From NCBI GenBank assembly GCA_977017645.1, contig OZ360238.1, forward strand, positions 52,390,001-52,454,000: a stretch of DNA of 64,000 bases. The letters run 5' to 3'. Shown one piece after another: positions 4,571 through 59,157 of the stretch (position 1 is the first letter of the stretch; every line of letters starts with the position of its first letter). The notes under the pieces were generated by a model. That model was given only the letters and a program-made list of their open reading frames with translations, searched no databases and was not told the origin of the DNA. This DNA comes from Torpedo marmorata. Lineage: Eukaryota. The position numbers were made by a program, and so were the translations under genes.

Positions 4571-6528
4571 TTTTCTAAATTGCTGCAGACTTCCATGCTT
4601 CTTTCCATGTTAGGATCGACATTTAGATAAAAATCCTTGGCGGCTTCAACAAGTTTAAATCCTTCTTCAAGTTCTTTTATAGTGATTTCTTTAGCCGTAT
4701 TTTCAGCTGTTTCACCCTCTGTCTTCAGCTGCTTCAAATGCACGTTGCTCATCGAGTTGAAGATGATCATTTTCGCTTAATTCTTCTACATGCGAATCAA
4801 GCAATTCTCGCACATTTTCTGTATCCACGTCAAAACATACGTTACTTCCAATAGCAGTTAACTCTTCAATTATTTTGTCCGTGGGACTGAAGCCAAGAAA
4901 ATCATTTGCACAACAGGGCAAAAGATATTTCCAAACTGCTCGCATATTGCTGGAAGTAACCTCTTGCCAGGAAAGTTTAATGTTTTCAATGGTAAATCAC
5001 GAAAATCTGTAGACACCGTGGTTTTAGTAAAAACACAAAATGCTGGAGAAGCTCAGCAGGTCAAACAGCGTCCTTTATGTAGCAAAAGTAAAGATACATA
5101 ACCGACATTTCGGGCTTGAGCCCTTCATCAAAGTATGAGAAAATGCCAGCAGGCGTCCGAACAAAAGAATGGGGGGGGTGGGTGGCCTGCTTTATATTGT
5201 ATTTCTTCCAAAATTCTGTACATAAAATTCCATTTTCTCCTGATGTTGCTTGAAGTGCTTGTGCAAAAGTCCTTCGAAGATAATATGCTTTGAATGATGC
5301 AAGAGTTCCTTGGTCCATCGGTTGCAATAATGATGTTGTATTCGGTGGTAGAAACACAACTTTTACATTTTCATTCAAATCTCCCAATGAAGTAGGATGT
5401 CCTGGAGCATTATCTAACAGCAAGAGCGCTTTAAAGCTAAGGTTATTATTCTTGCAATATTTTTCAACTGTTGGACAAAAATACAAAATGAACCAGTCTT
5501 CAAAAAGTTCCTTGGTTATCCATGCTTTTTTTATTAGCACGCCAAATAACTAGTAGTTTGACTGCTAGTCCCTTTTAAAGCACGGGGATTCAGAGTACGG
5601 TACACTAGCATAGGCTTAAGTCCCCTTCTGCATTGCCTCCTAATAAAAGGGTAAGTCGATCTTTCGAAGCTTTGTATCCTGGTTGAGATACTTCATCTTT
5701 AGCTAAAAAAGTTTTTGTTGGCATTCTTTTCCAGAATAGGCCTGTTTCATCAACATTAAATATTTGCCTATCATCGTAATTGCCTTCTTCAACAATTTTG
5801 AAAAATTTCTGGAAATTTTGCAGCAGCATTTTTATCAGCGCTAGCAGCTTCCCCTGTAAATCTTACGTTATGTAATCCTGTTCGATGTTTAAAGCGGTCA
5901 AACCAACCTAAACTTGCAGCAAAAGTTTCCGTATCCCCATGAAATTTATTTTCTTTAAGCATCGAAATGAAACATTGAATGTTTTTTGTACAAAGTGGTA
6001 TTCGCTTTTGGTTACAATCTTCAATCCAAAGATGAAGTAGCCATTTCATTTCAATCATTAATGGACTTCTGTTTCGAGTAATTTGCATGCTTAAAGAAAC
6101 TGATGCAATTTTACCTTGTTCTTTATATTCGTGCTTCTTACTTAAAATTGTGCGTACCGTTGACTCGTTGTAGCCCAGATCGTGTCCGATTTTCTCATTG
6201 CTGGCACCGTCTTCATGTCGTTTAATAAGTTCATGTTTTTCTTCTAAAGTAATTGCTTTTCTTTTCCTTTTAATATCACTGTCAAGATTCTTTTCCACAT
6301 TTTCTTTTATCCATATTTAATAGGGGGCAAACACTGAGTTTGACTGTCATTTGTGCATATTTTATTTAGGGCCGTTCACACTTGTAACTCGAGTTTTCCA
6401 GAAATTTCCAGAAAGATCTCGTGGTAACTAAATAATTACACGCGTAAAACAGGAAATGGTCGCAGTTTTCCAAATCGCGGTAACTGAATTTCGCGTTGAT
6501 TGAAGTAGCTTATAGCAGGGTTTGCCTG
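4571..6528 (-). mobile_element. Tigger/pogo transposon, frameshifted and missing its 3' end
   Basis: HTH (KRKAITLEEK, GWFDRFK) and DDE (FNVDETGLFWK, LLLLDNAPGH, FLPPNTTSLLQPMDQG) ORF pieces; 5' TIR CAGGCAAACCCTG next to TA at 6529-6530. Confidence 0.9.
4992..5184 (-). mobile_element. Penelope-derived short element (pLTR fragment) with hammerhead-like core, inserted in the Tigger
   Basis: Minus strand TTTGATGAAGGGCTCAAGCCCGAAATGTCGGT; matches the pLTR at about 44830-44985. Confidence 0.8.
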
Positions 6529-11344: not shown

Positions 11345-14300
11345 TTATGGAAGATGTGAGGTATTAGCAGGGAAGTATTGGCTTTGTGGCCAAGTTTGCA
11401 GATGATACGAAGGTAGATCGAGGAGCAGGTGGTGTAGAGGAAACAGGGAGGTTGCAGAAGGACTTAGATTAGAAGAATGGGCAGAGAAGTGGCAAATGAA
11501 ATATAATGTCGGAAAGTGTACGGTCATGCACTTTGATAGAAATATAAATGCACAGATTATTTTCTAAATGGGGAGAAAATTGAAAATACCCACATGCAAA
11601 GGGACCTGGGAGTCCTTGTGCAGGTTGAGTCGGTTGTGAAGAAGGCAAATGCAATGCTGGCATTAGTTTCAAGAGAACAGAATATAAGAGCAGGGGTTTG
11701 ACACTCTTGAATCTTTACGCACCAAATTTTGACGACGAGACATTTATGCAGAATATTTTTTTGAGTGACAGGAGGTCGACAAAACGTTTTGATTAGTGGG
11801 GATTTTAACTTTTGTCTGGATCCCATTCTGGATAAATCGGCAAAGACAGTTAAAGCCAGGGTGGCTAAAACAACCTTGGCTTTCATGAAAGATTTAAACC
11901 TAATAGATGTATGGAGACAGTTGCACCCTCAAGCTAGAGACGACTCCTTTTATTCAAAGCCACATGATTCTTACACCAGAATTGACTATTTCCTGATGTC
12001 TGCACAATTAGAAGGCAGAGTGATTGAATCGGAATATCAAGCCAGACTTCTATCGGACCACGCACCCTTGATTTTGTCTATGGTAATGCCAGATAAACAA
12101 GCTAACGCGTACAGATGGCGCCTTAATTCTACGCTGTTGAAAAGACTAGATTTATGTGGTTTTATAAGTGGTCAGATAAGTTTGTTTTGCGAAACAAACT
12201 GCCCCTCTACTAATAATAGTTTTCTAATATGGGATACATTGAAGGTGTATCTAAGGGGGCAAATAATTTCATACACCAAAAATGTCAAGAAAAAGTATAT
12301 GGCGGAAATAAAAAATTTGGAAGGGGAGATTTTAAAATTGGAAAAGGAATACCAACAGTCGGAATCAAAGAATAAATATCAAACTTTGGTAAATAAGAAA
12401 CTTAAATATAATACTTTACAAACATACAAAATGGAGAAGGACATTTTAAGATCTAAGCAGAAATACTATGAATTAGGGGAAAGAGCACATAAGGTTTTGT
12501 CTTGGCAATTGAGGACAGAGGAGACTTCGAGGACAATTAATGCAGTTCAGTCGGGACCGGATAAGATATCGTACAATCCAAAAGAGATCAATTACACTTT
12601 TAAACAGTTTTATGCAAAATTGTATGAGTCAGAGTCGCCAAGTGACTCAACTACAATAGATGAGTTCCTGTCCACGATTGAATTGCCAAGGTTGGACCAG
12701 GAGGATCAGATGGAATTAGGTGCCCCATTCTCCGAAGAGAAGATTGAAAAAGCCTTGGGTTCTCTACAGGCGAATAAATCACCGAGAGAAGATGGTTTCC
12801 CGCCTGAGTTCTCCAGAGAGTTTAAGAATCTTTTGATGCCTCTTATTATGAATGTAGTTAACCAGGCGGAGGAAACACGGACTCTCCCGGAATCCTTTTC
12901 AACAGCTATTATTACGGTTATACCAAAGAAAAATAGAGACCCATTAAAACCTTCTTCACACAGGCCCATTTCATTATTAAATGCGGACTACAAAATAATA
13001 GCCAAGGCATTGGCCAATAGATTGGGTCAATATTTACCAAAATTGATAAATTCGGACCAAGTCGGCTTTATTAAGAAGAGACACTCGGCCAACAATTTGG
13101 GCAGACTATTGAGAATTATACATTTGGCACAATCAAAGGCAGACCCAAGTATAGCCGTGTCTTTGGATGTGGAAAAAGCTTTCGATAGTTTGGAATGGCC
13201 TTTCTTATTTAAAGTACTGGAGAAATTTGGATTGGGAGAATCATTTATTAATTGGGTAAGAACGCTCTATTACAAACCTCGGGCCAAGATCATTATGAAT
13301 GGTCAGATATCGTCGACATTCCCCTTAAGTAGGTCCAGCAGACAGGGTTGTCCACTGTCTCCAGGTCTTTTTATCTTGGCAATTGAGCCACTAGCAGAAT
13401 CTATTAGGCGGGACCCAGACATAAAAGGATTCAGGGTGGACCAGGTGGAACATAAAATTAATTTATTTGCAGATGATGTGTTGTTGTATTTGACAGACCC
13501 TGCCGAGTCCTTGGCCAGGTTGCAGACCACACTGGAAGATTACGGCATGATTTCGGGTTACAAAATCAATTTAGAAAAAAGTGAGATCATGCCGTTGACA
13601 AAATTTGATTACGGGGAATATCAACAAAAGAGTCGCTTTAAGTGGCAACCAAAGGGTATTAAATATTTGGGAATAATGAGTGACAATGATTTGCAAAATT
13701 TGTATAGACTTAACTACCTCCCTATGCTTGGAAAGATCGAAGACGATTTACTTAGGTGGAGGGACCTGCCCATTACTCTAGTGGGCAGGGTGAACTGCAT
13801 TAAGATGAAGGTGATGCCGAGACTGCAATACCTCTTTCAGTCCTTGCCAATCCCATTGCCGCGGGTCTTTTTTAAAGCACTTAACGGACATGTAAGGCAA
13901 TTTATCTGGAGTGGTAAGGTCTCCAGAGTTTCCATGGAGAAGCTGACATGGGATTACAATTTGGGGGGTTTGCGATTACCAGATTTTAAGAAATATTATT
14001 TAGCAGCTCAGTCGAGGTTTCTTTCATCCTTTTTCGAGGGGGACGATCCCCCCTCATGGGTCCAAATTGGACTACACACCATAGGAGAGAAAATAGCGAA
14101 GGACTTTATCTACAAATGGAACACCAAATTAATATCTAGGCGAACGGACAATCCCATTCTAAAATATATGATTAAGATTTGGCAGGAAATCATTGAATGT
14201 ACTGGAGGAAAGGTGGAAATATCACCAAAGGCACCTTTGATCCAAAACGAAACTATGCCCATGGCTTTGGGTAACAAAATTTAAACATTTGGCACCAGAG

Positions 14301-16035
14301 GGGAATCCAGTATATTGAAGATTGTTATGAGAAAGGACAATTTATGTCTTTTGAGCAATTGAAGAGTAAATATGATTTGTCTAATGGAACCTTCTACTGT
14401 TTTATTCAACTAAGGTCCTTCTTGAGGGATTGATGGGGTCCTACAATGACCCCACCTCGGTGTAATGAAATGGAAACGTTGCTTCGATTGGGAAATGCAC
14501 CTAAATTCATATCTAGAATGTATTTCGTACTCCAAAGCGAAAACCCTAAGCCGGGCCTACAAAGATTGAGAGAGAGATCGGAGTCGGACTTGGGAACAAC
14601 AATTCACGAACGATGCTGGTCAGACTGGTGTTTAGATAGCATGACAGCAGTCATTAATGCCAGATATAGGCTGGTTCAATATAATTTCCTACACCAATTG
14701 TATCTCACACCACAAAAACTACACAAGTCAAAACTGGAGATATCAGAAATGTGTTTCAGGTGTGGGATAGAAATTGGATCCTTTTTACACTCCAGCTGGT
14801 CATGTGCAAAGGTAAGGCCCTTTTGGCATGATTTGGCTAACGTACTAACTAGGATTACGGGAGTAGCTTTCCCACTAGACCCGGAGTTGTATCTTTTAGG
14901 AAACCTCATGGACATAAGCAACAGATTATCTAAATTCCAAATTCAATTTGTAAAAGTTGCTCTGTCCGTAGCAAAAAAATGCATTGCAGTTACTTGGAAG
15001 TCCGACTCCCCCCTTCTCATCACTCGATGGTCTACGGAAATGTACAGCTGTATCCCCATGGAAAAAATTATATATAGTCTTAGAAATAAGTACGATAACC
15101 TTGTTAAAGTGTGGCAACCGTACTTGGAGCACATTGGTGCTCAATTGTAATCAAACCTCTGAGGTATGGTGTACTGTAATGTATAATTATTTTAAGGGTG
15201 TGTCATCCCCAAATACTTGGACAAAAGTTGTAAGCGCTGACGGTACGTTTAGTTTTCTTTTCCTTTTCTTTTTCTTCTGTTTTGGTTTTATTCTTTTTGG
15301 GTGGGGGAGGGAGGGTTAAGGGGCATAATGTATTCTGTACTTGATACGTTTGAAATTTATGTATGTTCGTGATTGTTTATTAATGTTTTGTGAAAATTTT
15401 GAAAATGAAAAATAAAATATTTTCAAAAAAAAGAGCAGGGGTTTGATGTTGAGGCTTTATAAGGCACTGGTGAGGCCTCACTTGGGAGTGTTGTGAGCAG
15501 TTTTGAGCTCCTCATTTAAGAAAGGATGTGTTGATGTTGGTGAGGGTTCAGAGGAGGTTCACAAGGATGATTCCGGGAATGAAAGGGTTATCATATGAGG
15601 AGCGTTTGACAGCTCTTGGCCTGTAGTCATTGGAATTTATGAGAATGAGGGGGGGATCTCATTGAAACATTTTGAATGATGAAAGGCATGGACAGAGTAA
15701 ATGCAGAAAAGTTTCCCATGGTGGGAGAGTCTAGGACAAGAGGGCACAACTTCAGGATTGAAGAGCATCCACTTAGAACAGAGATGCGGAGGAATTTCTT
15801 TAGCCAGAGGGTGGTAAATCTGTGAAATTTGTTGTCACATGCAGTTGTGGAGGCCAGATCATTGGGTGTATTTAAGGCAGAGATCGTTAGGTACTTGATT
15901 AGTCAGGGCATCAAAGGTTACGGGGAGAAGGCCAGTCAGTGGGGCTAAGTGGGAAAATGGATCAGCTCATGATTAAATGGCAGGGCAGACTCAATGGGCT
16001 GAATAGCCTATTTCTGCTCCTATGTCTTATGGTCT
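11345..16035 (+). mobile_element. CR1 LINE 3' part, split by the L1 insertion
   Basis: AKFADDTK-type RT remnant at about 11390, continuing after 15446 to the TATGTCTTATGGTCT tail; same family as 25975-26335. Confidence 0.85.
11702..15430 (+). mobile_element. 5'-truncated L1/Tx1-like LINE (nearly full ORF2, a few stops/frameshifts)
   Basis: 839-aa and 234-aa ORFs with EN, RT (FADD) and C-terminal CFRC..H..WSC; AATAAA + polyA; 16-bp TSD AAGAGCAGGGGTTTGA (11686-11701 / 15431-15446). Confidence 0.95.
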
Positions 16036-16078
16036 CAGCTCTTATCCATCTATTGAATTTCTTTCAGATCCTCAATTC

Positions 16079-19000
16079 ACCTTTATTAATATCTTGTATA
16101 ATTCCGGAAAAAGAAAAAACTGTATATAGTTGGAGATTTAATTCATCTTTATTAAAAAGGAAAGATTTTTGTGAATATATGAGAAGGGAAATTCAGGAAT
16201 TTTTGCAAATAAATTCTAATTCTACTGATAATAAATTTATTATTTGGGAAGCTTTAAAAGCTTATTTAAGAGGTCAAATAATAAGTTATTCAGTAAAAAT
16301 TAAGAAAGATTATCTTAAGGAAGTAGAAAAACTTGAGAAGGAGATTGAATGTTTGGAAAAAGATTTACAAAAAAATAGATCAATTCAAAAAAGAAACCAT
16401 TTAATAGGGATGAAATTACATTATAATTTATTACAAACATATAAAATGGAAAAATTAATTGAAAGAACTAAACAAAGGTATTATGAATTAGGAGAAAGAG
16501 CTCATAAAGTTTTGGCATGGCAATTAAAAAAAGATCAAATTTCTAGAACTATAAATGCTATAAGGAAAAAAAACTCTGGAGAGATAACTTATAAACCTCG
16601 AAAAATAAATGATTCTTTTAAAGATTATTATTTGAATTTATATAAATCTCAGATTGATCAAGCTGATTCTAAAATTACTAGATTTTTATCTAAAATTACA
16701 TTACCTAAACTAAATATTCAAAGTAGAGAATCTTTAGATTTACCTTTTACAATGAGGGAAGTTAATGAAGTTCTTTCTTCATTAAAGAGTGGTAAATCTC
16801 CAGGTGAAGATGGGTTTCCATCAGAATTTTATAAGGAGTTTAAAGATTTATTAATACCTCCATATATGGAAGTATTGAATCAAATTACGGAAACTCACTC
16901 ATTACCGGATACTTTTTTAAATGCAATAATTACAGTTATACCAAAAAAAGATAGAGATGTATTGAAAACTGAATCATATAGACCTATTTCATTGTTAAAT
17001 GTAGATTATAAGATAATGGCAAAAATTCTAGCAAATAGAATGGCTAATTATTTACCAGATTTAATTCATGTAGATCAAGCTGGTTTTATCAAAAATAGAT
17101 ATTCAAAAGATAATATAGCTAGATTGATTAGCTTAATTAATTTACATAAAAAGAAGGAAGATTTACCATTAGTTTTAACATTAGACGCTGAAAAGGCTTT
17201 TGATAGATTAGAATGGAATTTTTTATTTAAGGTACTGGAGAAATTTGGTTTTGGAAATACATTTATTAACTGGATTAAAACTATATATAAAGAACCATCT
17301 GCTAAAGAAGTCACAAATGGACAAATTTCTCCAAAATTTCCTTTGACTCGATCTACTAGACAGGGATGTCCTCTGTCACCAGCATTATTTATTTTGGCGA
17401 TAGAACCTTTGGCTGAATTAGTTAGAAAAGATCCTAAAATAGTAGGTATTAAAGTTGGAATGGAAGAACATAAAATTAGTTTGTTTGCAGATGATGTATT
17501 GATATATATGACAAAATCTGTTGCATCTTTAGTACAACTGTCTATTTTATTGAGAGAATATGGGGAAATATCTGGATATAAAATTAATTCTGATAAAAGT
17601 GAGATCATGGCATTATCACAAGGGGATTATAGTAGATGTAAAGAAATTACACAATTTAAATGGGCAAAGAAAGGAATTAAATATTTGGGAGTAAGGGTTG
17701 ATACAAAATTGGCTAATTTATATAAATTAAATTACCTACCATTATTCGTGAAAATAAAGAAAGATTTAGAAAATTGGAAAGATTTACCTATAAGTTTATT
17801 GGGAAGAGTAAATTGTATTAAAATGAATATTTTTCCAAGAATTCAATATCTTTTTCAATCAATTCCTTATGGAATTCCTCAAAAAAAATTTAAAGATTTA
17901 AATTCAATTATTAGGAAATTTTTATGGAAAGGAAAGTTAGCAAGAGTAGGTATGGAAAAATTAACTTGGAATTATGAAATGGGTGGCTTGCAACTTCCTA
18001 ATTTTCAAAATTATTATAAAGCAGCTCAATTAAAATTTGTTAATGAATTTTTTGACTTAACTAAATCTCCTGCTTGGATTAAAATAGAATTAAATAATAT
18101 AGGTGATGACGCTAAAGAAGAAATTATTTATAAATGGGATTCTAAATTAATATCAACAAGAAAGAAAAATTCGCCTATTTTTAAACATTTGTTAGAAATA
18201 TGGAATAAGACGGATAAGGAAATAGGAGGAAAAGGATTGATTTCTCCAAGGATGCCTTTATATCAAAATGGACTTATTCCATTTACTATTAATAATCAAT
18301 TATTTAAAATTTGGTTTCAAAAAGGAATTAAGAAGATTAGTGATTGTTTTGAAGCTGGGAAATTTATTATGTTTCAAAGAATGAAAGATAAATTTAATAT
18401 ATTAGATAATACACTTTTTGCTTATTATCAAATTAGAGCTTTTCTGATTGAGAAATTAGGTTATGCTTTGATTTTACCAAGACAAAATGAATTAGAATTA
18501 TTAGTTACTAATGGAGATGTTAATAAATTTATTTCTCAAATGTATAAATTGTTTCAGAGGAAAATGCCAAAAGTAGGTTTGCATAAATCAAGATTAAAAT
18601 GGGAATTAGATTTGAATGTAAGAATAGATGAAAATCATTGGAAAGAATTATGTAAATTAAGTATGACGAAGATTATTAATGTTAGATATAGATTAGTACA
18701 ATATAATTTTTTTCATCAATTATATTTAACACCTAAAAAATTAAAGAAATTTAATCCGACATTATCAGGTTTATGTTTTAGATGTAATAAAGAGGAAGGG
18801 TCTTTTGTACACTGCACATGGTTTTGTCCAAAAGTTTATGATTTTTGGTTGAAAGTTAAAAACTTTTTAGATAAAGTATTTAAGATTACATTTCCAATGG
18901 ATCCTATGATATTTTTGTTTGGAGATATTAGAAAATTTAGTATTAGGATGAAACTAAATATGTATCAGATAGAATTTTTGCGAATTGCTTTAGCTGTTTC

Positions 19001-19446
19001 AAAGAAGTGCATTGCTATTACTTGGAAATCTGATTTAGATTTAGGATTAGAAAGATGGCATGCAGAACTTCGTTCATGTATACCACTTGAAAAAATTACT
19101 TATAATTTACGTAATAAATACCATTTCTTTTTAAAAATTTGGAGCCCATATATGAAAGCTGTTGGTTTATGGATTTGAAGATCTCTAGATATCGGATCTG
19201 CTGGCATACTTGACCTCCATAATAGAATTAGTTTATAGATTGACATTCCCCTTACTCTATCTTTTTCTTTCTTTTTCTTCTTTTTCTATTTTTATTTTTT
19301 ATATTTTTATTTTTATTAGATTAGTGGGGTTGGGAGGGGAGGGAGGGAGGGGGGGTGAAATTGTATCACAAATAATTTGATAATTTTATATTCCATTTTA
19401 TGTATTTTGTGATTTAAAAATTTTAAATAAATTTTTTTTTTTTTTA
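16079..19446 (+). mobile_element. Young 5'-truncated L1/Tx1-like LINE with uninterrupted ORF2 (no endonuclease domain)
   Basis: Open from SPLLISC to the stop at 19178 with RT and cysteine-rich domain; 11-bp TSD ATCCTCAATTC (16068-16078 / 19447-19457). Confidence 0.95.
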
Positions 19447-20161
19447 ATCCTCAATTCCGAATCCAGCTTTTTATATGACAGTGTTTCATATTTAATAGTG
19501 ATTGCCTCTATGGTGTTTTATATGAACATGCATTCCTGCTGAGTAATTGTGTGTAAACGATGTTTTATCTCAAACTAACTATGTTATTTTCTCTTTTTTA
19601 AATTTGAATTTGTAATTAATCGGCTTCGCGTTAAACCACCATTCAACTTGCGATGTTGGAGGAACTCAGCGGGACAGACAACATCCAGCACCTCATTGTT
19701 TGCTCAAAATTCCAGCATGTCCAGTTTTTGTGTTTCTCTAGTATCCCATTTGAGAGTTTTTAAAAATTCCATTAATTAAAATTCCATTAATTTCCATTAA
19801 TCGTGATATGTGCCAAGGTACCCTATTTGAGTTGAATTCTCATTATGCCTTTGCACAAATAAAATGCCCCATTCTATGTTTTTATTACTTGCGTCGATAT
19901 TCAATACACTAAAAAGTATAGATCGGGTTGGTTGAAAGGTTTATGTAAGGTTTAACCTAAATTGATAGTGATTGTTGAATAGTTCTTGTTGAAAGTTGGA
20001 GAAATTTTAGCAATGTGCCCCAAAGTACTTTAGAAATGTATTAATTTCCTACATGACATTGGAGGAGGCTATTCAGCCCAATGACTCCAGACAAGTTTTC
20101 AGAGCATTCTCATCAGTCTGGGATATCAAGAAATGAGTTGCTCACTACAGGATTACACAAA

Positions 20162-20370
20162 GTAAAAACTCAATGCTGGAGAAACTCAGCTGGTCAAACA
20201 GTGTCCTTTATATAGTAAAGATAAAAACACATAACTAATGTTTTGGGCTTGAGCCCTTCATCAAGCCCGAAACGTCAGTTATGTATTTTTATCTTTACTA
20301 TATAAAGTACACTGTTTGACCAGCATTGTGTTTTTACTTCAAACACGGTGTCTGCAGACTTTTGTGTTTT
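20162..20370. mobile_element. Penelope-derived fold-back (hairpin) insertion
   Basis: Inverted arm 20162-20262 plus forward pLTR piece; 18-bp TSD ACTACAGGAT(T/A)ACACAAA at 20144-20161 / 20371-20388. Confidence 0.85.
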
Positions 20371-20419
20371 ACTACAGGATAACACAAACTCTGCTGAGCT
20401 GTTGGTAACAACAATATTC

Positions 20420-38172: not shown

Positions 38173-38799
38173 TCACATGCCGTGTTTCTTCCTGATCACT
38201 GACATGGACAGCAGCTTCTCCTTGTTCCTCAGCTCCTCCCGCAGGATCGCCTCGCCGACCTTCAGCTGCCGGATGGTGCCCTTCATCTCCTTGATCCTCA
38301 CCTCCATCAGCGCGATGATGTCCTTCTGCTCGTTGAGCTTCCTCAGCAGCTCCTCGGAGGTGGTGGTGGAGGAGAGCGAGTAGGAGTGATCCAGGCACTC
38401 GGGCGGAGCGGGCGAGGAGGAGGAGGAGGAGGGCGGCGGCGGCGAGGAGAAGGAGGAGAAGAAGCCGGACAGGTCGACCGGCTTGGCTTCGCCGGGCACG
38501 GCCGTCGGCAGCTTCTTGCGGTAGCGCCGCACCTTCCTCTCGTTCACCCCTCTCAGCGGGAAGATGGTGGGCACGTTGACCGAGTAGGTCTTCCTGCCGC
38601 CGGCGAAGTGGACGCTGCACACCCGGTGCCCGGTGGTGGGGTGGAAGGTGCTGAAGCAGCCGGCCACGCCGGCTCGGGACACGTTCTGCAGCCACGCCCG
38701 GCGCTGCCCCTCGTCCTTGGGGAAGGTGTAGAAGCGCAGGTCGCGGTCGCGGTGCGAGTTGTTGTAGCAGCCGGGCACACAGCAGGTGAAGCCCGGCAT
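38173..38799 (-). CDS. THAP11: THAP domain-containing protein 11 (Ronin), intronless, 208 aa
   Basis: [22 protein letters not shown] zinc finger through VPTIFP; HCF-binding motif DHSY; C-terminal coiled coil [19 protein letters not shown]; neighbour of CENPT. Confidence 0.97.
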
Positions 38800-38990
38800 C
38801 TCCCCACGCCGATGCCCCGGGGCCGCGTCTCGGCCCTCTCCCCGCCGCGGCTGCTCCTCTCCCCGCCCAACTTTCCGCTTTATTTATTTTTTCCCCGAAA
38901 CGCCGAGTTCGTTGCAAAGCCCAGGCCACAAGCGGAACTACATCCCCCACAATGCCGCGCGCCCTGCACGGCTACTTCCGGTCAAATAAC
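38800..38990 (-). promoter_or_regulatory. THAP11 promoter / 5' UTR
   Basis: CpG-rich; ACTACATCCCCCACAATGC at 38937-38955 (ZNF143/THAP11 type); ETS site ACTTCCGG about 38974. Confidence 0.8.
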
Positions 38991-39139
38991 TCCCCTTTCT
39001 GCTCCAAAGTAAGAGCACTATTGCAATAAACGTATTTTCTAAATTATAAATATGTTATAAATGCAACTTAATTCTATCTGACCCCGAATATCCAGTTATT
39101 ACCACTGTAAAGTCTGCACTAATAAACACTATTGCAATA

Positions 39140-39648
39140 AAAACACAATGCTGGAGAAACTCAGCAGGTCAAACAGTGTCCTTTATGTAGCAAAGATAAA
39201 GATACATAACCAACGTTTCGGGCTTAAGCCCTTCATCAAGGTACAGTATGAGCAAAATGTAGGCAGGCGTCTGAAGATAAAGATACATAACCAACGTTTC
39301 AGGCTTGAGCCCTTCATCAAGGTATAGTATGAGCAAAATGTAGACAGGCATCCGAAGATAAAGATACATAACCAATGTTTCGGGCTTGAGCCCTTCATCA
39401 AGGTACAGTATGAGCAAAATGTAGGCAGGCGTCTGAAGATAAAGATACATAACCAACGTTTCAGGCTTGAGCCCTTCATCAAGGTATAGTATGAGCAAAA
39501 TGTAGACAGGCATCCGAAGATAAAGATACATAACCAATGTTTCGGGCTTGAGCCCTTCATCAAGGTACAGTATGAGCAAAATGTAGACAGGCGTCCGAAG
39601 ATAAAGATACATAACCAACGTTTTGGGCTTGAGCCCCTCATTAAGGTA
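39140..39648 (-). mobile_element. Penelope-derived insertion containing an 81-bp tandem array
   Basis: Units start at 39193, 39274, 39355, 39436, 39517 and 39598; flanking direct repeat TAAACACTATTGCAATA (39123-39139 / 39662-39678). Confidence 0.92.
39193..39648 (-). ncRNA. Putative tandem minimal type-I hammerhead ribozymes (6 motifs, 5 with intact core)
   Basis: Minus strand unit: UAC C UUGAUGA a GGGC ucaa GCCC GAAA C guug GUU a UGUAU. Core has U in place of C3; activity untested. Confidence 0.6.
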
Positions 39649-39924
39649 TCACTATTTAAGGTAAACACTATTGCAATAGACATATTTTCTAAAATATAAA
39701 TACCGGTATGTTTTAAATGCAACTTAATTATATCTGACTGCAAATCTCCAGTTATTACCCCTGTAAAGTCTGCACTAATTACTGTTGGAAGTTTTGCAGT
39801 TTTATGATTCAAATTTACCACAGTAGACTCATAATGTTCACAAACACTTTCAAAAATGCATGGTTTAGAGTACCTATTAATTGAGAATATCCATACATGC
39901 ATAATTATATAATACATAACAAGA

Positions 39925-42556
39925 TGTCAATTTATTATTATTACACTGCGTATACACGATGGGTAAACCCCAGCCCCCCTTCCCCCCAAACCAAAACCCC
40001 AGAAAAGAAGAAAGAAAATAAATAAAAGAAAAGTATGAAGAAAGATAAAGTGACCTGGATGGTAAACAGTCGCCACCTACATCACGGTTTTTAATTAGTT
40101 ACTTTTTTTTCCTCATATATTTCTCAGGGGGAAATTGATGAGACGCTTGATAAGGGAAAGAAAAAAAACTATAAGTTTATTCCTACATTTGTAAATATGG
40201 GTGCCATATTTTCAAAAATACATCATATTTATTTCTTAAGTTGTACGTAATCTTCTCAAGTGGGATATAACTATGCATTTCTGTATTCCACCGTTCCATA
40301 CCCAAATGGGAGTCTGATTTCTAAGTTGCTGCTATACATTTTTTTGCTACTGCTAACGCAATTTTTAAGAATTCTTTTTGATACATATTTAATTTCAATT
40401 TAGGTCTTATCCCCTCAATATTACCTAATAAAAACAACATTGGATCTTGTGGAAATTTAGTTCTCATAATCTGCTCTAAAAAGGTTTGTAAATCTATCCA
40501 AAAAGATCTTACTTTAGGGCAAGACCAAGTTGAATGTAAAAAAGTTCCTATTTCCTGATTACATCTCAAACATTGATCTGATAAGTCTGATTTTAACCTT
40601 TTCAGTTTCTGTGGTGTAATATATAATTGATGTAAGAAATTATATTGAACCAATCTGTACCTAACATTTATTGTATTTGTCATACTATCTCGACATAACT
40701 CTGACCAGTTTCGTTCATCAATATTTATATTCAAATCCATCTCCCATCTTTGTCAAGATCTATGAATCCCTTTTTTAAAGTTAATTTTTGTAATAAATTA
40801 TACATAGACTGACGGAATATTTACCAAAATTGATAAATATGGATCAAACAGGATTTGTACAAAAAAGACAATCTGCAGATAATAATACATTTAGCACAGA
40901 AAAGGGGAGATTTAAGTGTAACAGTGGCTTTGGATGCCGAGAAGGCGTTTGATAGATTATAATGGGATTTTTTATTTAAGGTGTTGGAAAAATATGGGAT
41001 GGGACAGATATTTGTAAAATGGATTAAAGCTTTGTATAATGAACCTGGGGCCAGAGTGGTAACAAATGGACAGGTCTCTGTACCATTTCCATTAACAATA
41101 TCGAGTAGACAAGGTTGTCCATTATCACCAGCTTTATTCATTTTAGCAATAGAACCACTTGTAGAATTGATACGGTCAGATCCAGAGATTAAAGGATTTA
41201 AAGTTAACCGAGAAGAATACAAAATTAATTTATTTGCTGATGATGTTTTAATTTATTTGACAGAACCAATAAGTTCATTACGTAAATTATATTTAAGACT
41301 TGAAGAATATAGGAAAGTATCGGGTTATAAAATAAACTGGGATAAGAGTGAAATTATGCCTCTTACTACAGGAGACTATACTCAGTGTCAAAGAGAAACT
41401 CAATTTAAATGGCCAACGAATGGTATAAAGTACTTAGGTATACGAGTAAATAATGATTTTAAAAATTTATATAAATTGAATTACTTACCTTTATTGAAGA
41501 AAATTGGAGATCTTAATAAATGGATGACATTACCAATAACTTTGCTGGGTAGAGTTAACTGTGTTAAAATGAATATATTTCCTAGAGTACAATATTTGTT
41601 TCAAACACTACCGATACTATTACCACAAAAGTTTTTTCAAGAACTAAATAAATTTATAAGGAAATTTCTTTGGAAGGGTAAGATGTCGAAGATTTCTTTA
41701 GAAAAATTAACATGGAAATATGAGTTGGGAGGTTTACAACTTCCAAATTTTAAGAATTATTATAAAGCAGCACAAATGAGATTTATAACATCTTTTTTTG
41801 AAGAAGGACAGAAGTCGGCGTGGATTAAAATAGAATTAGATAAGATAGGAGAAAAAATATCAGAAGATTTTATATATAAATGGGAATCAAAATTAATAAC
41901 GGGTGATAGAGAAACCCCTCTGTTGAAACATTTGATTAATATCTGGAAAAAAGCAAACATTGATGATGAAATGAGGGGATCTCTATTATCAAGAATGTCT
42001 TTAATTCAAAATCGACTTATTCCTTTTACAATGGATAATCAACTATTATCCACCACCCAGGCCATGCCCTCTTCACTCTGCTACCATCGGGAAAAAGATT
42101 CAGGAGCCTAAAGACGAACACTCAACGGCACAAGGACAGCTTCTTCCCCGCTGCCATCAGATTCCTGAATAATCAATGAACCAAAGACACTGCCTTACTT
42201 TTCGTGCACTATTATTTATATTTTTTATAGTAATGTCGTAAGATGGTTATAATATGAATGTTTGCACAATGATGCTGCCGCAAAACACTGAATTTCATGA
42301 CTTGTTCATGACAATAAATTCTGATTCTGAAGAAATATATGGTCTCGCAAAGGAATTAAATATATAGAAGATTGTTATGAAGGGGATAAATTAATGTCAT
42401 TTGAACAATTAAGAAATAAATATGGAATACAAAATAATACACTTTTTTGTTACTATCAGTAAAAAGCATATTTAAGAGAAAAGTTAGGCCCAACAATGCT
42501 ATTGCCAAAACCTAGTGACATTGAAATTTTGATTCGGAATAGACGTATAAATTTTT
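39925..42556 (-). mobile_element. L1/Tx1-like LINE with an inverted 5' segment
   Basis: 39925-40815 is the ORF2 C-terminus and 3' UTR on minus; about 40816-42556 is the preceding RT region on plus (376-aa ORF, FADD). Confidence 0.88.
42049..42330 (+). mobile_element. Rex1-like 3' fragment nested in the L1
   Basis: Matches the 27661 family and ends AATAAATTCTGATTCTGA; L1 resumes after it. Confidence 0.88.
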
Positions 42557-43014
42557 TTACCTGGGAATGTCTTATGGAAACAATACAGATAATCACCAAT
42601 TCTTCTTTTAAAATAAAACTAAAAAAAAAATACAGTCTTCTGCAGGATTTGCTAACTGAGACACTGTCAGAATTTTTCTGAAGACCACAAAATGATGTCT
42701 CACTGCCACAATGTAGAGACACATGGTGGAACAAAGGAACTTAAGGATACCCAAGTGCACTTATAAATCTAACAATTCTTTTGAAACATATCAGAACAGT
42801 ACTCTTCCACTGAGCATGATTCCTTGTAACTGACCAAGATATTTTCTCCACATCAGTCTGACAGACCAAAATCTACTGCAGATTTTGTTTCCCAATGAAA
42901 TTCCCTTCATGGGTGTCATCACCATAGTGAAAGGTTCTGTCTCCTCTGCAGCTGGCCTAGTTATTTTAAAACCTGAGGTTCTAAGCAAGCAAAGTCACAG
43001 TGCTGAGATAAGTA

Positions 43015-44985
43015 TTAAAAGCACAGAAATGCTGGAGGAACTCAGCAGGTCTCACAGCATCCATGAGGTAAAGGTATATTTCTGATGTTTTGGGCCTGAG
43101 CCCTTCAAGGTATGAGCAAAAAACAGGCAGGTGTCTGTATTAAAAGACTGGTGAAATGGGAATAATAGCAGGGGGAGGAGTACAGGCCAACAAACCAAAG
43201 GTGTAATTAGATATGATAAGATGACAAGTGAGGAAAGGTGAGAATTGATGGTGTAGGCTTGTAGCATGGATTGCTCCACATAGCCAACAAAGACGCAGAC
43301 ATAGCTGGGGCCCATGCGGGTACCCATGGCTACCCCTTTGAAATGGAGAAAGTGGGATGAGTCAAAGGAGAAGTTATTGAGGGTGAGGACAAGTTCTGCC
43401 AGCCGGAGGAGGGTAGTGGTGGAGGGGGTCTGTTGTCAAGAAAGAAACGAAGGGCTTTGAGGCCTTCGGTGTGGGGGATGGAGGTTTATCGTGATTGGAT
43501 GTCCATGGTAAAGATGAGGTGGTGGAGTTCAGGGAACTGGAAGTTGTTGAAGTGATGGAGGGCGTGTGTACGACTACTTTGGTGCTGCTTTGTGTACCCA
43601 TGATGAGCTCGTCGACTTTATCCACTTTGCTGCCAACTTCCACCCCGACCTCAAATTCACTTGGTCCATCTCCAGCAACACTCTCCCTTTTTTTGATATC
43701 TGTGTTTCCATCTCGGGAGGCAAACTCTTGACAGACATCTTCTACAAACTCACCACTCCCACAGGTACCTTCACTGCACCTCTTCACATCCTGTCCCCTG
43801 TAAGGATTCCATTCCATTCTCTCAATTCCTCCGTCTCCGTCGCATCTGCTCCCAGAATGAGGTCTTCCATGCCAGATTATCAGAGATGTCCTCCCTCCAA
43901 ACAATGTGGCTTCCCCTCTACCACCATCAACTCGGTCCTCACCTGCATACCTCCATTATCCGCACAACTTCCCTGGCCCCCTCCATCCCCATGCGCAACA
44001 AGGACAGGATTCCCCTTGTCTTCAGCTACCAACCTCTGCATCCAACATATCATACTCCACCAATTCCGCCACGTGCTGCATGGTCCCACCACCAGACACA
44101 TATTTCCCTCTCCGCCTTCTACTGCAGGGACCGCTTCCTCCGTGACTCCCTCGTCCACTCCTCCCTTCCTTCCAATCGCCCCCTTGGCACCTACCCCTGT
44201 GATCGCAGGAGGTGCTCCACTTGCACCCACACCTCCTCCCTCACCACCATTCGGCGCCCCAAACAGTCTTTCCAAGTGAAGCAACACTTCACGTGAATCT
44301 GCAGGGGTCGTCCACTGCATCCGGTGCTCATGTTGTGGTCTTCTCTACTTCGGAGAGACTAGGCGCAGACTGGAAGATCAATTCATTGATCACCTCGGAT
44401 CTGTCCGCCGCAATAGCATGGATCTCCAAGTGGTCACCCATTTCAATTCCCCGTCCCATTCCCTTGCAGACACGTCTGTCCATGATCTCATGTACTGCCT
44501 GACTGAGACCACCTGCAAATTGGAGGAACAACACCTCATCTTCCATCTGGGCACCCTCCAACTGGATGGCATTAACATCAACTTCTCTGGTTTCTGTTAG
44601 CCCCCACCCCATCTTTCCCTATGTCTCCTTTCCTCCAGCTCTGTCTCTCTCTCTCTCTCTTCCCTTTTCCCTTGGTCTCCTTTCACAGAGTCAAAAACAA
44701 ACCCCCTCCCCCATCAATTCTTATCTTTCCTCTCTCCTGTCCTCTTATCATATCCAATTAACACCTTTTGTCTGTTGGACAGTACTCCTTCCTCTCCCAT
44801 TCTTGCCTTTTCACCAGTCTTTAAATACAGACGCCTGTTTTTTGCTCATACCTTGACGAAAGGCTCAGGCCCGAAATGTCGGTAAAACATCTTTACCTCC
44901 ATGGACACTGCGAGACCTGCTGAGTTCCTCCAGCATTTCTGTGTTTTTACTATAATCACAGCATGTGCAGACTTTTGTGTTTCAC
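43015..44985 (+). mobile_element. Penelope-like element: inverted 5' pLTR/RT piece, RT C-terminus, GIY-YIG remnant and 3' pLTR
   Basis: MGTRMGPSY (minus), FHPDLKFTWSIS..LPFFD, VQVKQHFT-like, EEQHLIFHLGTLQ.DGININF; hammerhead-like CCTTGACGAAAGGCTCAGGCCCGAAA at about 44851. Confidence 0.88.
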
Positions 44986-44996
44986 CCTCACTGCTC

Positions 44997-50198: not shown

Positions 50199-50633
50199 GG
50201 CCCCTCTCCCCCGGCGCGGCCCGCGGGGCCCCTCTCCCCCGGCACGGCCCGCGGGGCCCCTCTCCCCCGGCGCGGCCCCTCTCCCCCGGCACGGCCCGCG
50301 GGGCCCCTCTCCCCCGGCACGGCCCGCGGGGCCCCTCTCCCCCGGCACGGCCCCTCTCCCCCGGCACGGCCCGCGGGGCCCCTCTCCCCCGGCGCGGCCC
50401 CTCTCCCCCCGCACGGCCCGCGGGGCCCCTCTCCCCCGGCGCGGCCCCTCTCCCCCGGCGCGGCCCGCGGGGCCCCTCTCCCCCGGCACGGCCCCTCTCC
50501 CCCGGCACGGCCCCTCTCCCCCGGCACGGCCCGCGGGGCCCCTCTCCCCCGGCGCGGCCCCTCTCCCCCGGCGCGGCCCCTCTCCCCCGGCGCGGCCCGC
50601 GGGGCCCCTCTCCCCCGGCGCGGCCCGCGGGCC
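50199..50633. repeat. GC-rich minisatellite with 17- and 29-bp units
   Basis: GGCCCCTCTCCCCCGGC(A/G)C with optional GGCCCGCGG insert. Confidence 0.95.
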
Positions 50634-50894
50634 GCTCTTCCCCCTCCCCCTCCAAAATCAGAGATAATTGGAAGTTGTATTCGTGTAGTTGCTCTCAAAT
50701 CCCATTCGATTGGGCTCCAAGCACTTGGTGACAGATGAAATACAGCTCCCTCAGATGGGAATGTGATCATCTAGTTTTTAAAAAGAGTGCTGAGTGACTA
50801 GAATATTGGCCAAAACACCCACTTAATAGCCTATTCTTTGAAATAGTGTAATGATCTCTTGTGGTTGGCAATTCGTCTTTTGGGCAGTATTATT

Positions 50895-57093: not shown

Positions 57094-57893
57094 GTGGGTA
57101 GCAATGTGATTTTTTTTTTAACAGATTTTATTAGTTGTAGATTGGCTGTGGTACAGTGATCAAGTTACCAGTCTGTAATCCAGATGCCTGGTCTTGCATG
57201 CAAGATGATTAGTTGTTTCCTTTCTGCATCATCTCAGTTCACTTTTTAACCACTAATGAAGCCTCTGCAGAGGTGAATCTGTAAATAGGCTCGCAAAGTT
57301 TCAAGATTGTAACACAAACCAAAGTGCTGAATACCAGAAATAAAGTGAGAATGACTGCCTTTGACATGAGCATGTGATCAAATGTAGCATGAAAGAGCTC
57401 AGGTAAAACTGGTCAATGTCATCAAAGGGGGACAAAAAAATCCAGCGGTTGGATACAGGAACCTTGCACAAAAGGTGATTATTTGAAGGTCAATTATTCC
57501 AGCCATGGGATTTCCTCGGCAGATCCCAATCTTGGAGCTGCTTCAGTCATGACATTCCTGTCATATTGGGTCAGAAGTTGGGCTGTTTGCACATTAAGTT
57601 CTATTCAAGGTATGATGGTAGTGCAGTAGCTAAATTACTGAAGTGTTAACCCAGAGAGTCGATTAACAATCCAGAAAACAAAGTTCAAATTCTATTGAGT
57701 TTATATTCTTCCCCTTGTAATGGCACGAAGACCATTCGGTCTCTGCTGGCTCTCAGACTTTTTGATTGCACAATATTCAATTCCATTTGCAACTTCTCAC
57801 CAAATCAAGCAGTGCTTGTCACTTGCAGCAAGACTTGGGACAACATTCAGACACAGGTTTGTAACTGACGAGAAATAATCACGGTATAAGTGT

Positions 57894-59157
57894 AAATTGA
57901 TTCTGAAGTAAAAAGCACAATGCTGGAGAAATTCAGCAGGTCAAACCATGTACTTTATATAGCAAAGATAAAGATACATAACCAACGTTTCGGGCTCAAG
58001 CCCGAAACGTTATGTATCTTTACCGTTGCTATGTAAAGTACATGGTTTGACCTGCTGAGTTTCTCCAGCATTGTGCTTTTTACTTCAGAATCAATTTATT
58101 GTCATGAACAAGTCATGAAATTCGGTGTTTTGCGGCAGCATCATAGTGCAAACATTCATGTTATAAACCATCTTACGACATTACTATAAAAAAATATAAG
58201 TAATAGTGCAGGAAAAGTAAGGCAGTGTCTTTGGTTCATTGATTATTCAGGAATCTGATGGCAGCGGGGAAGAAGCTGTCCTTGTGCCGTTGAGTGCTCG
58301 TCTTTAGGCTCCTTTACCTTTTTCCTGATGGTAGCAGAGTGAAGAGGGCATGGCCTGGGTGGTGGGGGTCTTTGAGGACAGAGGCTGCTTTTATCATGTA
58401 GATATCCTCGATAGAGTGAACTCTTGTCTGGTGCCTGTGATGTCACAGGCCGAGTTAATAACCCTCTGGAGTTTATTCTTGTCCTGAGAGTTGGCGCCTC
58501 CATACCAGGCAGTGATGCAACCAGCCAGAATGCTCTCCACGGTACACCTGTAGAAGTTTACGAGAATCGGTGACATACCGAATCTCCTCAGACACCTCAC
58601 AAAGTATAGCCGCTGGAAAGCCGCCTTTGTGATTGCATCAACGTGGAGGCTCCAGGACAGATCCTCGGAGATGTTGACACCCAGGAATTTGAAGTTCTTG
58701 GCCCTCTCCACTACTGAGTCCTCGATGAGGACTGGGTCGTGTTCCCCTGACTTCCTTCTGAAGTCCACAATCATATCCTTGGTTTTGCTGACGTTGAGCA
58801 CAAGGTTGTTGTCGTTACACCATTCAACGAGCTGATCTATCTCCCTCCTGTACGCTTCCTCATTGCCATTTGTGATTCTGTCGACAACTGTGGTGTCATC
58901 GGAGTTTAAGAAAATTTGACATCCTGGAAAGAGGATTGGAGCAGTAATCTGGAAAGAGAGGGAGATGCTGTTCTGTCTTGTATCATCCTTATCATAGGAG
59001 ATACACAACATAAGTGGCTTTTAAATAAGTAAGACCACTTCTGACTGCCTCTAAGAAAAGAGGGCAGCCCCGTGTGTAACTTTCGATTAAGAAAAAAATT
59101 ATCGTGGAAAACAGGATCCGGACAACTATGGTGACTGCAGACTTTCATGTTTTACTT
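57894..59157. mobile_element. Composite insertion: Penelope hairpin + Rex1 3' fragment (-) + LTR-A-like fragment + Penelope 3' tip
   Basis: 14-bp TSD CA(C/T)GGTATAAGTGT (57880-57893 / 59158-59171); palindrome 57894-58097; Rex 58085-58900; LTR-like 58901-59120. Confidence 0.8.

What the first reader, a model, noticed from the sequence alone, without database searches (positions are those of the whole stretch)
39193..39648. Tandem array of 81-nt hammerhead-ribozyme units about 200 bp upstream of the THAP11 promoter
Seen: six head-to-tail units with an 81-bp period and alternating variants giving a 162-bp higher-order repeat. On the THAP11 strand each reads UUGAUGA-a-GGGC(ucaa)GCCY-GAAA-C-(g/a)uug-GUU, with a minimal helix III; units 1, 2 and 4 keep the palindrome AACGUU, and unit 6 has a broken core. 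Known: Penelope pLTRs carry minimal type-I hammerheads, short helix III ribozymes can cleave as dimers (newt satellite 2, ASBVd), and retrozymes are tandem hammerhead repeats yielding circular RNAs, usually larger than this. Inference: a retrozyme-like unit that may release 81- or 162-nt RNAs or circles, may have arisen by rolling reverse transcription or slippage, and could cut read-through transcripts before THAP11.
Basis: partly seen in the sequence, partly recalled or inferred. Interest (0 to 1): 0.78.

Follow-up and report, generated by a model that had tools for sequence, protein, structure and literature searches.

The report
Decayed hammerhead repeat from a retrotransposon
A short piece of a very common jumping-gene repeat, carrying a probably broken self-cutting RNA motif, landed as a head-to-tail array next to the THAP11 gene of a shark or ray; it fits a known kind of element and is unlikely to regulate the gene.

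Summary
The array is real: 5.6 copies of 81 bp. It lies inside one 522-bp insertion (39140-39661) with an exact 17-bp target-site duplication. The unit is a slice of a dispersed repeat found at 9 other places in the window. One of these is the 3' end of a decayed Penelope-like element. The host is probably a ray. All units have U3 against G8, and only unit 1 has no further damage. The junction is 19 nt from the cut site, and the insertion keeps the family's 3' tail. It was therefore copied from linear RNA that was, or became, longer than one unit; one 162-bp DNA duplication followed. The same junction, with other letters, stands in contigs of two runs with other organism labels, one guessed to be RNA. 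It may thus be a small family or a recurrent template jump. Verdict: new, probably inert member of the Penelope-derived tandem hammerhead repeats (non-LTR retrozyme-like).

The parts
39140..39661 (-). Whole insertion, 522 bp: 5' filler, 5.6 units, 3' tail
   Evidence: Lies between the two copies of the 17-bp duplication
39123..39139 (.). Target-site duplication, left copy (17 bp)
   Evidence: Exact match to 39662-39678, and this 17-mer occurs only at these two places in the window; 0 of 1951 random 40-nt window pairs share 12 or more bases
39662..39678 (.). Target-site duplication, right copy (17 bp)
39140..39192 (-). 3' tail of the dispersed repeat, present once and not part of the unit
   Evidence: Matches the other window copies; contigs of 4 runs commonly end at 39138-39141 (tables 7 and 8)
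39193..39273 (-). Unit 1: U3 at 39239, ACGU intact, G10.1-C11.1, predicted cut after 39212; the least damaged unit
39274..39354 (-). Unit 2: ACGU intact, G10.1.U11.1, predicted cut after 39293; identical to unit 4
39355..39435 (-). Unit 3: palindrome lost (ACAU)
39436..39516 (-). Unit 4: ACGU intact, G10.1.U11.1, predicted cut after 39455
39517..39597 (-). Unit 5: palindrome lost (ACAU)
39598..39648 (-). Unit 6, 5'-truncated (about 51 nt), G5 and G12 changed to A, ACGU kept
39641..39672 (.). 5' junction: 16-bp two-copy repeat made of element end and target start (filler)
   Evidence: TRF row 39641-39672; sequence
39227..39586 (.). Region of the recent 162-bp duplication (198 bp without a mismatch at period 162)
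39016..39123 (.). Older direct repeat of the flank, copy 1; 86% like 39666-39779
39666..39779 (.). Older direct repeat of the flank, copy 2; the insertion sits at its start
38173..38799 (-). THAP11 coding sequence (neighbour), one open frame of 208 aa
42996..44986 (+). Decayed Penelope-like element: inverted 5' piece, RT-end and GIY-YIG-like frames, 3' repeat with a related hammerhead at 44848. Shows where the repeat family comes from

Best explanation
The array is one retrotransposed insertion of a non-coding derivative of a Penelope-like element's pLTR, now most likely inert. Steps: (1) Shown: the unit is a slice of an abundant dispersed repeat that also forms the 3' end of a decayed Penelope-like element in the window. 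(2) Shown: the insertion has a 17-bp target duplication, the family's 3' tail once, and a 5' end in mid-unit with filler. (3) Inferred: a Penelope RT/GIY-YIG protein acting in trans primed at a nick, began in the tail and copied a linear RNA. The cDNA was already longer than one unit, either because the donor was tandem or because the RT jumped back about 81 nt at a short T/C-rich microhomology. It stopped in mid-unit after at least 1.6 and perhaps 3.6 units. (4) Shown: the units then diverged, half of the changes at CpG, and one 162-bp DNA duplication gave 5.6 units. (5) Inferred: the motif is a minimal type I hammerhead that could only work as a strand-swapped dimer through ACGU:ACGU. With U3.G8 in every unit and further damage in 5 of 6, it cuts very slowly or not at all. 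Its position near THAP11 is accidental.
For: Other copies: 9 further segments, 1991 bp in all. In two DNA runs 68,592 and 69,187 contig records were laid, nearly all on the repeat part; summed depth in run X1 was about 1e7 against 18 on the unique flank, which is not a copy number. Penelope link: pieces of 43052-44597 match shark and ray proteins with RT (PF00078) and PF26215 labels; the best hit has a weak GIY-YIG match, E 4.6e-4, below cut-off. Target duplication; 2 of 6 other copies tested also show 8-10 bp flanking repeats. The sequence of unit positions 52-81 is missing from the outermost unit, so a monomer ending at the observed 5' end could not supply it. The junction is 19 nt 3' of the cut site. 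CpG: 5 of 10 variable columns fall in the 8 of 81 positions that are CpG. Core states. In a type III hammerhead, all single changes in the CUGA/G8 region had low activity and only the G3-C8 swap was rescued (PMC9901934, passage). Minimal PLE hammerheads cut weakly even as dimers (PMC4209133). 8 of 9 Xenopus tandem dimers tested did not cut (bioRxiv 10.64898/2026.07.22.740005). No compensatory change in 10 pairs over 10 distinct copies.
Against: No cleavage assay exists, and I saw no rate for U3.G8 in a dimeric minimal hammerhead. A natural U3...G8 core is cited from a halophile virus (PMC7151607, passage), and a lizard PLE hammerhead cuts only with its protein (PMC11167929). U3 seems to be the family norm (12 of 12 aligned rows; no other letter listed at 39239 in 4 runs), so it is not decay of this copy. 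The junction stands at depth 670 in run X10, guessed to be RNA. The match of the microhomology rests on one native copy. No empty site was seen, and the order of the early duplications is not resolved: position 71 is shared by units 4 and 5 against the outgroup copies, which hints at stepwise growth.
Confidence: 0.7

Rival explanations
1. The junction marks an active, very small retrozyme family. Tandem arrays are transcribed, cut as dimers (perhaps with protein help) and give 81- or 162-nt linear or circular RNAs that Penelope RT re-inserts. This locus is one ageing copy.
For: The joint 39267 to 39193 with six other letters between, i.e. the array's own head-to-tail junction in another sequence version, is listed in run X1 (DNA?, organism A, depth 74.6) and run X10 (RNA? 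guess, organism D, depth 670.2) among the 12 rows shown of table 5c. In X10 this is 22% of the depth of bin 39258-39273, against 0.06% in X1, and X10 has no cover on the THAP11 flank. Tandem layout, long target duplication and low GC fit the retrozyme description (PMC7229834). Units 2+1 and 4+2 can form all 4 helix III pairs.
Against: Contigs only: no strand, ends or level. RNA is a guess, and the organisms differ. The depth in X1 (4 to 8 times the flank) fits one array or a few. Side lengths of these joints were not shown, nor whether they carry C3. The family makes many other joints (15 shown, 174 more hidden), so this may be one of many recurrent template jumps. The insertion has a tail that a cut circle lacks. 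Predicted 81-nt circles fold no better than base-shuffled sequence (-6.0 to -7.2 against means of -8.3 to -8.8 kcal/mol), unlike the stable retrozyme circles described.
Confidence: 0.1
2. A single ordinary pLTR copy inserted, and all tandem units arose later by replication slippage or unequal exchange at the locus (an ordinary minisatellite).
For: The 162-bp duplication is clearly a DNA-level event. The flank itself has an unrelated 110-bp tandem duplication. One column suggests stepwise growth. Within the window the junction occurs only in this array, 5 of 5 exact matches. The cited preprint proposes local amplification after insertion.
Against: The insertion's 5' end lies at unit position 51, next to an intact target duplication, so positions 52-81 had to arrive with the insert. 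The alternative needs a later deletion that ends exactly at the duplication. The junction exists elsewhere with other letters.
Confidence: 0.15
3. The array has been co-opted to cut or stop minus-strand read-through transcripts before they reach the THAP11 promoter.
For: The ribozyme strand is the THAP11 strand, and the insertion ends 159 bp from the ETS-type motif.
Against: No upstream gene was found: 0 of 54 minus-strand frames and 0 of 73 plus-strand frames tested had a Pfam match at E 0.001 or better (short exons can be missed). Cores are damaged and still decaying. There is no sign of selection on the structure. The family covers 3.1% of the window.
Confidence: 0.03

Closest known systems
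[quoted passage not shown]
   Same: No helix III beyond the palindromic 15.1-16.1 tetramer, an extra nucleotide between 9 and 10.1, short helix I, location in the terminal repeat, thousands of dispersed truncated copies.
   Different: U3 faces G8 (the paper reports C3-G8 and U3-A8). Helix II has 4 bp. Motifs are repeated every 81 nt, not every 3 kb or so.
Animal non-LTR retrozymes (Cervera and de la Pena 2020, PMC7229834)
   Same: Head-to-tail non-coding units each with a type I hammerhead motif, GC below 50%, target duplication longer than 4 bp.
   Different: Unit 81 nt against 170-400 nt RNAs. Minimal, not canonical hammerhead. No stable circle fold. No cleavage or circle shown. The insertion keeps a pLTR tail.
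pLTR-derived tandem hammerhead repeats of vertebrates (Li, Clavereau, Pollet 2026, bioRxiv 10.64898/2026.07.22.740005)
   Same: Tandem repeats with canonical or minimal type I hammerheads, derived from pLTRs. Family consensus lengths 51-972 bp, most with 7 units or fewer, found also in the one chondrichthyan sampled. Most tested dimers did not cut. This is the closest description.
   Different: Their descriptor may not accept U3.G8 (not tested). Whether this ray family is in their tables is unknown, as the supplements were not seen.
Partial-tandem and inverted Penelope insertions with tail (PMC8557442, PMC3846280, PMC11167929)
   Same: 5' truncation, partial tandem, tail at one end, microhomology junctions, target duplications of 8-10 bp, AT-rich targets.
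   Different: Here the tandem unit is only a sub-pLTR slice, repeated several times, and the duplication is 17 bp.

Membership tests
Minimal PLE hammerhead (PMC4209133) | Located in the terminal repeat of a Penelope-like element | tested here: met
   Unit 1 plus tail is 72% like 44818-44949, which follows the RT-end and GIY-YIG-like frames
Minimal PLE hammerhead (PMC4209133) | Palindromic 15.1-16.1 tetramer in place of helix III | tested here: met
   ACGU in 4 of 6 units; ACAU in units 3 and 5
Minimal PLE hammerhead (PMC4209133) | Unpaired nucleotide between 9 and 10.1, and G10.1-C11.1 | tested here: met
   Extra base in 6 of 6 units; G-C in 4 of 6, G.U in units 2 and 4
Minimal PLE hammerhead (PMC4209133) | Short helix I closing the core | tested here: met
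   6 of 6 pairs with one bulge in 5 units, 5 of 6 in unit 6; 78.3% of cells paired over 10 copies
Hammerhead ribozyme (catalytic consensus) | Watson-Crick pair between positions 3 and 8 (C3-G8 or U3-A8) | tested here: not met
   U3 with G8 in 6 of 6 units and U at that column in 12 of 12 aligned rows
Hammerhead ribozyme (catalytic consensus) | Match to an Rfam hammerhead model | tested here: not met
   No match at gathering score or at E up to 10; the models are not built for motifs without helix III (my inference)
Hammerhead ribozyme (catalytic consensus) | Self-cleavage as monomer or dimer | not testable with these tools
   Needs in vitro transcription
Non-LTR retrozyme | Head-to-tail tandem units each holding a type I hammerhead motif | tested here: met
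   5.6 units; motif present but damaged
Non-LTR retrozyme | [quoted passage not shown] | tested here: inconclusive
   Units 2 and 1 qualify only if U3.G8 and G10.1.U11.1 are accepted; their descriptor was not run
Non-LTR retrozyme | Target-site duplication longer than 4 bp | tested here: met
   17 bp exact
Non-LTR retrozyme | Unit of about 170-400 nt (2020 definition) | tested here: not met
   81 bp; inside the 51-972 bp range of the 2026 preprint
Non-LTR retrozyme | Expressed as unit-length linear and circular RNA | tested here: inconclusive
   Only contigs were available; a junction contig at depth 670 in a run guessed to be RNA, from another organism label
Non-LTR retrozyme | Same unit at several unlinked loci (mobile family) | tested here: inconclusive
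   No genome held; junction only in this array within the window; a variant junction in 2 of 4 runs among the rows shown
Penelope-like element, EN+ (source element 42996-44986) | RT followed by a C-terminal GIY-YIG endonuclease, direct or inverted pLTRs | tested here: met
   Broken frames match elasmobranch proteins with PF00078 and PF26215; GIY-YIG only weakly, through the best hit; inverted repeat 42996-43257 / 44705-44967 at 82%. Neptune clade suggested by a CxxC linker (PMC8557442), no tree made

The most novel reading that the evidence does not exclude
Rays carry a mobile, expressed mini-retrozyme with a unit of about 81 nt, half the size of the smallest retrozyme circles described in the papers read. 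It arose by a template jump inside a Penelope pLTR. It cuts as a protein-assisted double hammerhead, either tolerating U3.G8 or with C3 in its live copies. The junction contig that makes up a fifth of the upstream-pLTR signal in run X10 would be its RNA. The THAP11 array would be a dated insertion that records the birth of such a family.
Probability: 0.08. Interest if true: 0.7.

Novelty: new member of a known kind. Interest (0 to 1): 0.3.

Why it matters
As most likely read, it matters modestly. It is a clean single-locus record of how a tandem hammerhead repeat arises from a Penelope terminal repeat. The target duplication, the tail and the mid-unit 5' end show that the tandem form came in by retrotransposition and was then extended at the DNA level. 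That bears on a proposal made from phylogeny in a 2026 preprint. It also points to a very abundant ray repeat whose hammerhead has U3 against G8 throughout, which is a cheap test of whether Penelope mobility needs an active ribozyme. If the novel case held, it would give the smallest retrozyme circle among those I found described, and a natural core variant.

Tried and rejected
No whole genome is held, so the junction could not be counted genome-wide. Rfam gave no hammerhead match. Pattern scans found 0 matches in metagenome contigs for the junction and for the core, and 0 in prokaryote genomes and viral contigs for a relaxed core; these collections are not expected to hold ray DNA. Sequencing runs: 21 listed, none with half of the words, no RNA holder listed on record. 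The stretch laid on reads was 38810-39273 only (flank, tail, unit 1), so an empty site could not be seen. One X1 contig (38965-39163, 4 other letters) runs 24 bases into the insertion, short of the 31 needed to count as bridging. Missing cover of the flank in X10 and X12 is no finding. The open minus-strand frame through the array found no protein at E up to 1 among 8000 candidates; 81 is a multiple of 3, and I treat the frame as incidental. Pfam did not recognise the broken Penelope frames directly. Single units and the 2+1 dimer fold no better than shuffles (z 0.21, 0.70, -0.90). Earlier findings of the scan: three look-ups, nothing shown. Two papers likely to bear on the core and on dimer cleavage (Lunse et al., RNA Biol 14:1499; Przybilski and Hammann, RNA 13:1625) are not held; I saw them only in reference lists.

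Full report
Verdict. The array is real and holds a hammerhead-type motif, but it is a local form of a very common Penelope-derived repeat, and this copy is probably inert. I rate it a new member of a known kind, interest 0.3.

Observation. Tandem Repeats Finder gives 39193-39648, period 81, 5.6 copies, 93% matches. There are five full units and a sixth of about 51 nt. Units 2 and 4 are identical, and the other pairs of full units differ at 2 to 6 places. The neighbouring gene is THAP11: Pfam THAP domain and matches to both PDB chains of that name. Its ATG is at 38799 on the minus strand. The array edge lies 212 bp from an ETS-type motif at 38974-38981 (the motif name is recalled). Rfam reports no hammerhead in the window or in the region.

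With GUU after a 4-nt loop as the triplet, the bases that should form helix I pair in 0 or 1 of 6 places in every unit. With the triplet directly after GAAAC, helix I forms 6 of 6 pairs with one bulge in units 1-5 and 5 of 6 in unit 6. Over 10 distinct aligned copies, helix I cells pair 78.3% in this register and 13.6% in the other. This is the minimal hammerhead of Penelope-like elements: no helix III in the monomer, an ACGU palindrome that pairs between two copies, and an extra base before helix II (PMC4209133, parts 1-2 of 4 read). Predicted cuts fall after 39212, 39293, 39374, 39455, 39536 and 39617. No pair shows a compensatory change, and the structure does not beat the column shuffles, so there is no sign of selection on the fold in this small set.

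State of the cores. All 6 have U3 against G8. Units 3 and 5 have lost the palindrome. Units 2 and 4 have G.U at 10.1-11.1. Unit 6 has lost G5 and G12. Only unit 1 has no damage beyond U3, and the only adjacent pair able to form the full dimer helix with both catalytic guanines is 2+1. In a pairwise mutagenesis of a type III hammerhead, all single changes in this region had low activity and only the G3-C8 swap was rescued (PMC9901934, passages). Natural covariation is to U3-A8 (PMC3088659, section 8 and passages). Against a firm 'dead': a natural core with U3 and G8 from a halophile source is cited (PMC7151607, one passage), and a lizard Penelope hammerhead cuts only in the presence of its protein and is not needed for insertion in vitro (PMC11167929, parts 1-2 of 4). 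U3 looks like the family norm: 12 of 12 aligned rows, and no other letter is listed at 39239 in 4 runs, though that place lies near common alignment ends and minor forms under 5% are not shown.

Origin of the unit. The same repeat occurs at 9 other places in the window, 1991 bp in all with the array. One copy (hammerhead at 44848) follows directly on broken reading frames at 43551-44597, and an inverted piece with another copy lies at 42996-43435. These frames match proteins named from Mobula, Hypanus, Rhinoraja, Leucoraja, Rhincodon, Chiloscyllium and Stegostoma, several with RT (PF00078) or PF26215 labels. The best hit has a weak GIY-YIG match below cut-off. This layout fits a Penelope-like element with an inverted pLTR (PMC8557442 and PMC3846280, passages). 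The top hits are rays, so the host is probably a batoid; this is inference. In public DNA runs X1 and X3, 68,592 and 69,187 contig records were laid on 38810-39273, nearly all on 39130-39273. Summed depth in X1 is about 1e7 against 18 on the unique flank; this is not a copy number but shows a very abundant family.

One insertion. An exact 17-bp repeat lies at 39123-39139 and 39662-39678 and nowhere else in the window. Among 1951 random pairs of 40-nt stretches the longest shared word was 10. Between the two copies lie 522 bp: read on the minus strand, a short filler, unit 6 from position 51, units 5 to 1, and 53 bp of family tail. Contigs of the family commonly end at 39138-39141, the same 3' end. 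Of 6 other copies tested, 2 show flanking repeats of 8 and 10 bp and 4 show none of 7 or more. No empty site could be checked.

What that says about the mechanism. (a) The tail is present once and lies outside the unit. A circle cut from the array would not hold it, so reverse transcription began on a linear RNA. (b) The junction between units is 19 nt 3' of the predicted cut, so it was not made by cleavage and ligation. The bases before unit position 81 in the closest native copy (5131) are T/C-rich and resemble those at the unit's 3' end, which suggests a microhomology jump; this rests on one copy, and the older copy at 44850 does not show it. (c) The outermost unit lacks positions 52-81 and abuts an intact target duplication. 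A monomer ending there could not supply those 30 bases, so the insert was longer than one unit on arrival, unless a later deletion ended exactly at the duplication. (d) At period 162 there is one perfect run of 198 bp from 39227: one recent DNA duplication. Removing it leaves 3.6 units with 10 variable columns, 5 of them in the 8 of 81 CpG positions. Most changes are private to one unit. Position 71 is shared by units 4 and 5 against the native copies, so some stepwise growth before the last duplication is possible.

The open lead. Table 5c shows 12 rows, with 141 hidden. Two of the rows shown join 39267 back to 39193 with six letters between: the array's own junction in a sequence version not found among the window's five junctions. 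One is in run X1 (DNA?, organism A, depth 74.6, 4 to 8 times its flank contigs). The other is in run X10 (RNA is a guess, organism D, depth 670.2, 22% of that run's depth in bin 39258-39273 against 0.06% in X1). So the junction is not unique to this sequence. It could be an orthologous array, a small mobile family, or a recurrent jump; the family shows many other joints (15 shown, 174 hidden). Contigs cannot show strand, ends or level, the side lengths were not shown, and the state of position 3 in these contigs is unknown. Predicted 81-nt circles from the window fold no better than shuffles. I give an active mini-retrozyme family about 0.08-0.1.

Regulation of THAP11. No upstream gene was found: of 84 unmasked plus-strand frames of 38 aa or more to the right of the array, 73 were scanned (the 11 left out lie in the Penelope element and a GC-rich tandem repeat), with one weak hit at E 0.003 below cut-off; 0 of 54 minus-strand frames of 45 aa or more matched. 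Short exons would be missed. A cut upstream of the promoter would not touch THAP11 mRNA itself. With the family on 3.1% of the window, closeness to a promoter needs no explanation.

Comparison with what is known. It works like, or once worked like, a Penelope minimal hammerhead and has its layout, but it fails the 3-8 pair of the catalytic consensus, so I do not file it as an active ribozyme. It has the shape of an animal non-LTR retrozyme (tandem, long target duplication), but the unit is under half the 170-400 nt described (PMC7229834, part 2 of 6 and passages; PMC7761336 and PMC6765202, passages). A 2026 preprint (10.64898/2026.07.22.740005, parts 1-3 of 5 read) describes pLTR-derived tandem hammerhead repeats in vertebrates, with consensus lengths of 51-972 bp, mostly 7 units or fewer, including one chondrichthyan; 8 of 9 dimers tested did not cut. 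Its supplements were not seen and may list this or a related family. Two searches for hammerheads or retrozymes in sharks and rays showed no other paper on the subject among the 20 rows listed in each; most subscription journals are not held. PMC3884650 (one passage) added nothing used here.

Scores. Best explanation 0.7; local slippage only 0.15; active small retrozyme family 0.1; co-opted cutter for THAP11 0.03. Novelty: new member of a known kind. Interest 0.3; 0.7 if the mini-retrozyme case held.

Noticed in passing
window 57893-58098 and 20160-20373: Two head-to-head inverted pairs of the same pLTR repeat, each turned at the helix II hairpin of the hammerhead. At 57893-58098 the inverted match (91%) reaches about 14 bp beyond the family match on each side.
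   Followed up: partly
window 42996-44986: Decayed Penelope-like element with an inverted 5' piece, a CxxC linker before the GIY-YIG-like region (Neptune-like) and an older subfamily of the same hammerhead, also with U3 and with GUC as triplet.
   Followed up: yes
window 39016-39123 and 39666-39779: An older 110-bp tandem duplication of the THAP11 upstream flank (86% alike); the insertion landed at the start of the second copy. Run X1 holds contigs like both copies.
   Followed up: partly
window 38937-38981: The THAP11 promoter region holds an ETS-type motif and an ACTACA-type motif of the kind bound by ZNF143/THAP11 (names recalled, not tested), which would allow self-regulation.
   Followed up: no
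window 39241-39246 (unit positions 49-54): Array units carry a 5-nt insertion in the 5' strand of helix I that most family copies lack (table 4). It allows an alternative, longer helix I with an internal loop.
   Followed up: partly
window 39169-39648 and 39183-39926, minus strand: Two of three minus-strand frames stay open through the whole array (81 = 27 codons); no protein relative was found for the one searched.
   Followed up: yes
window 15903-19178 (+) and 11765-14284 (+): Long open frames of LINE ORF2 type by eye (1091 and 839 aa stop to stop), possibly young L1/Tx1-like elements.
   Followed up: no
window 50199-50644: GC-rich minisatellite of 19-, 28-, 47- and 66-bp periods in a CpG-island-like stretch.
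   Followed up: no
protein P0013: A database protein labelled Proteus mirabilis, on a 474-nt contig, is 79% like the elasmobranch Penelope RT piece; probably contamination of that record.
   Followed up: no
window 5061-5549 and 5789-6316, minus strand: Tigger/pogo-like transposase pieces (DDE_1); a copy of the pLTR repeat is inserted at the end of the DDE frame (4986-5172).
   Followed up: no
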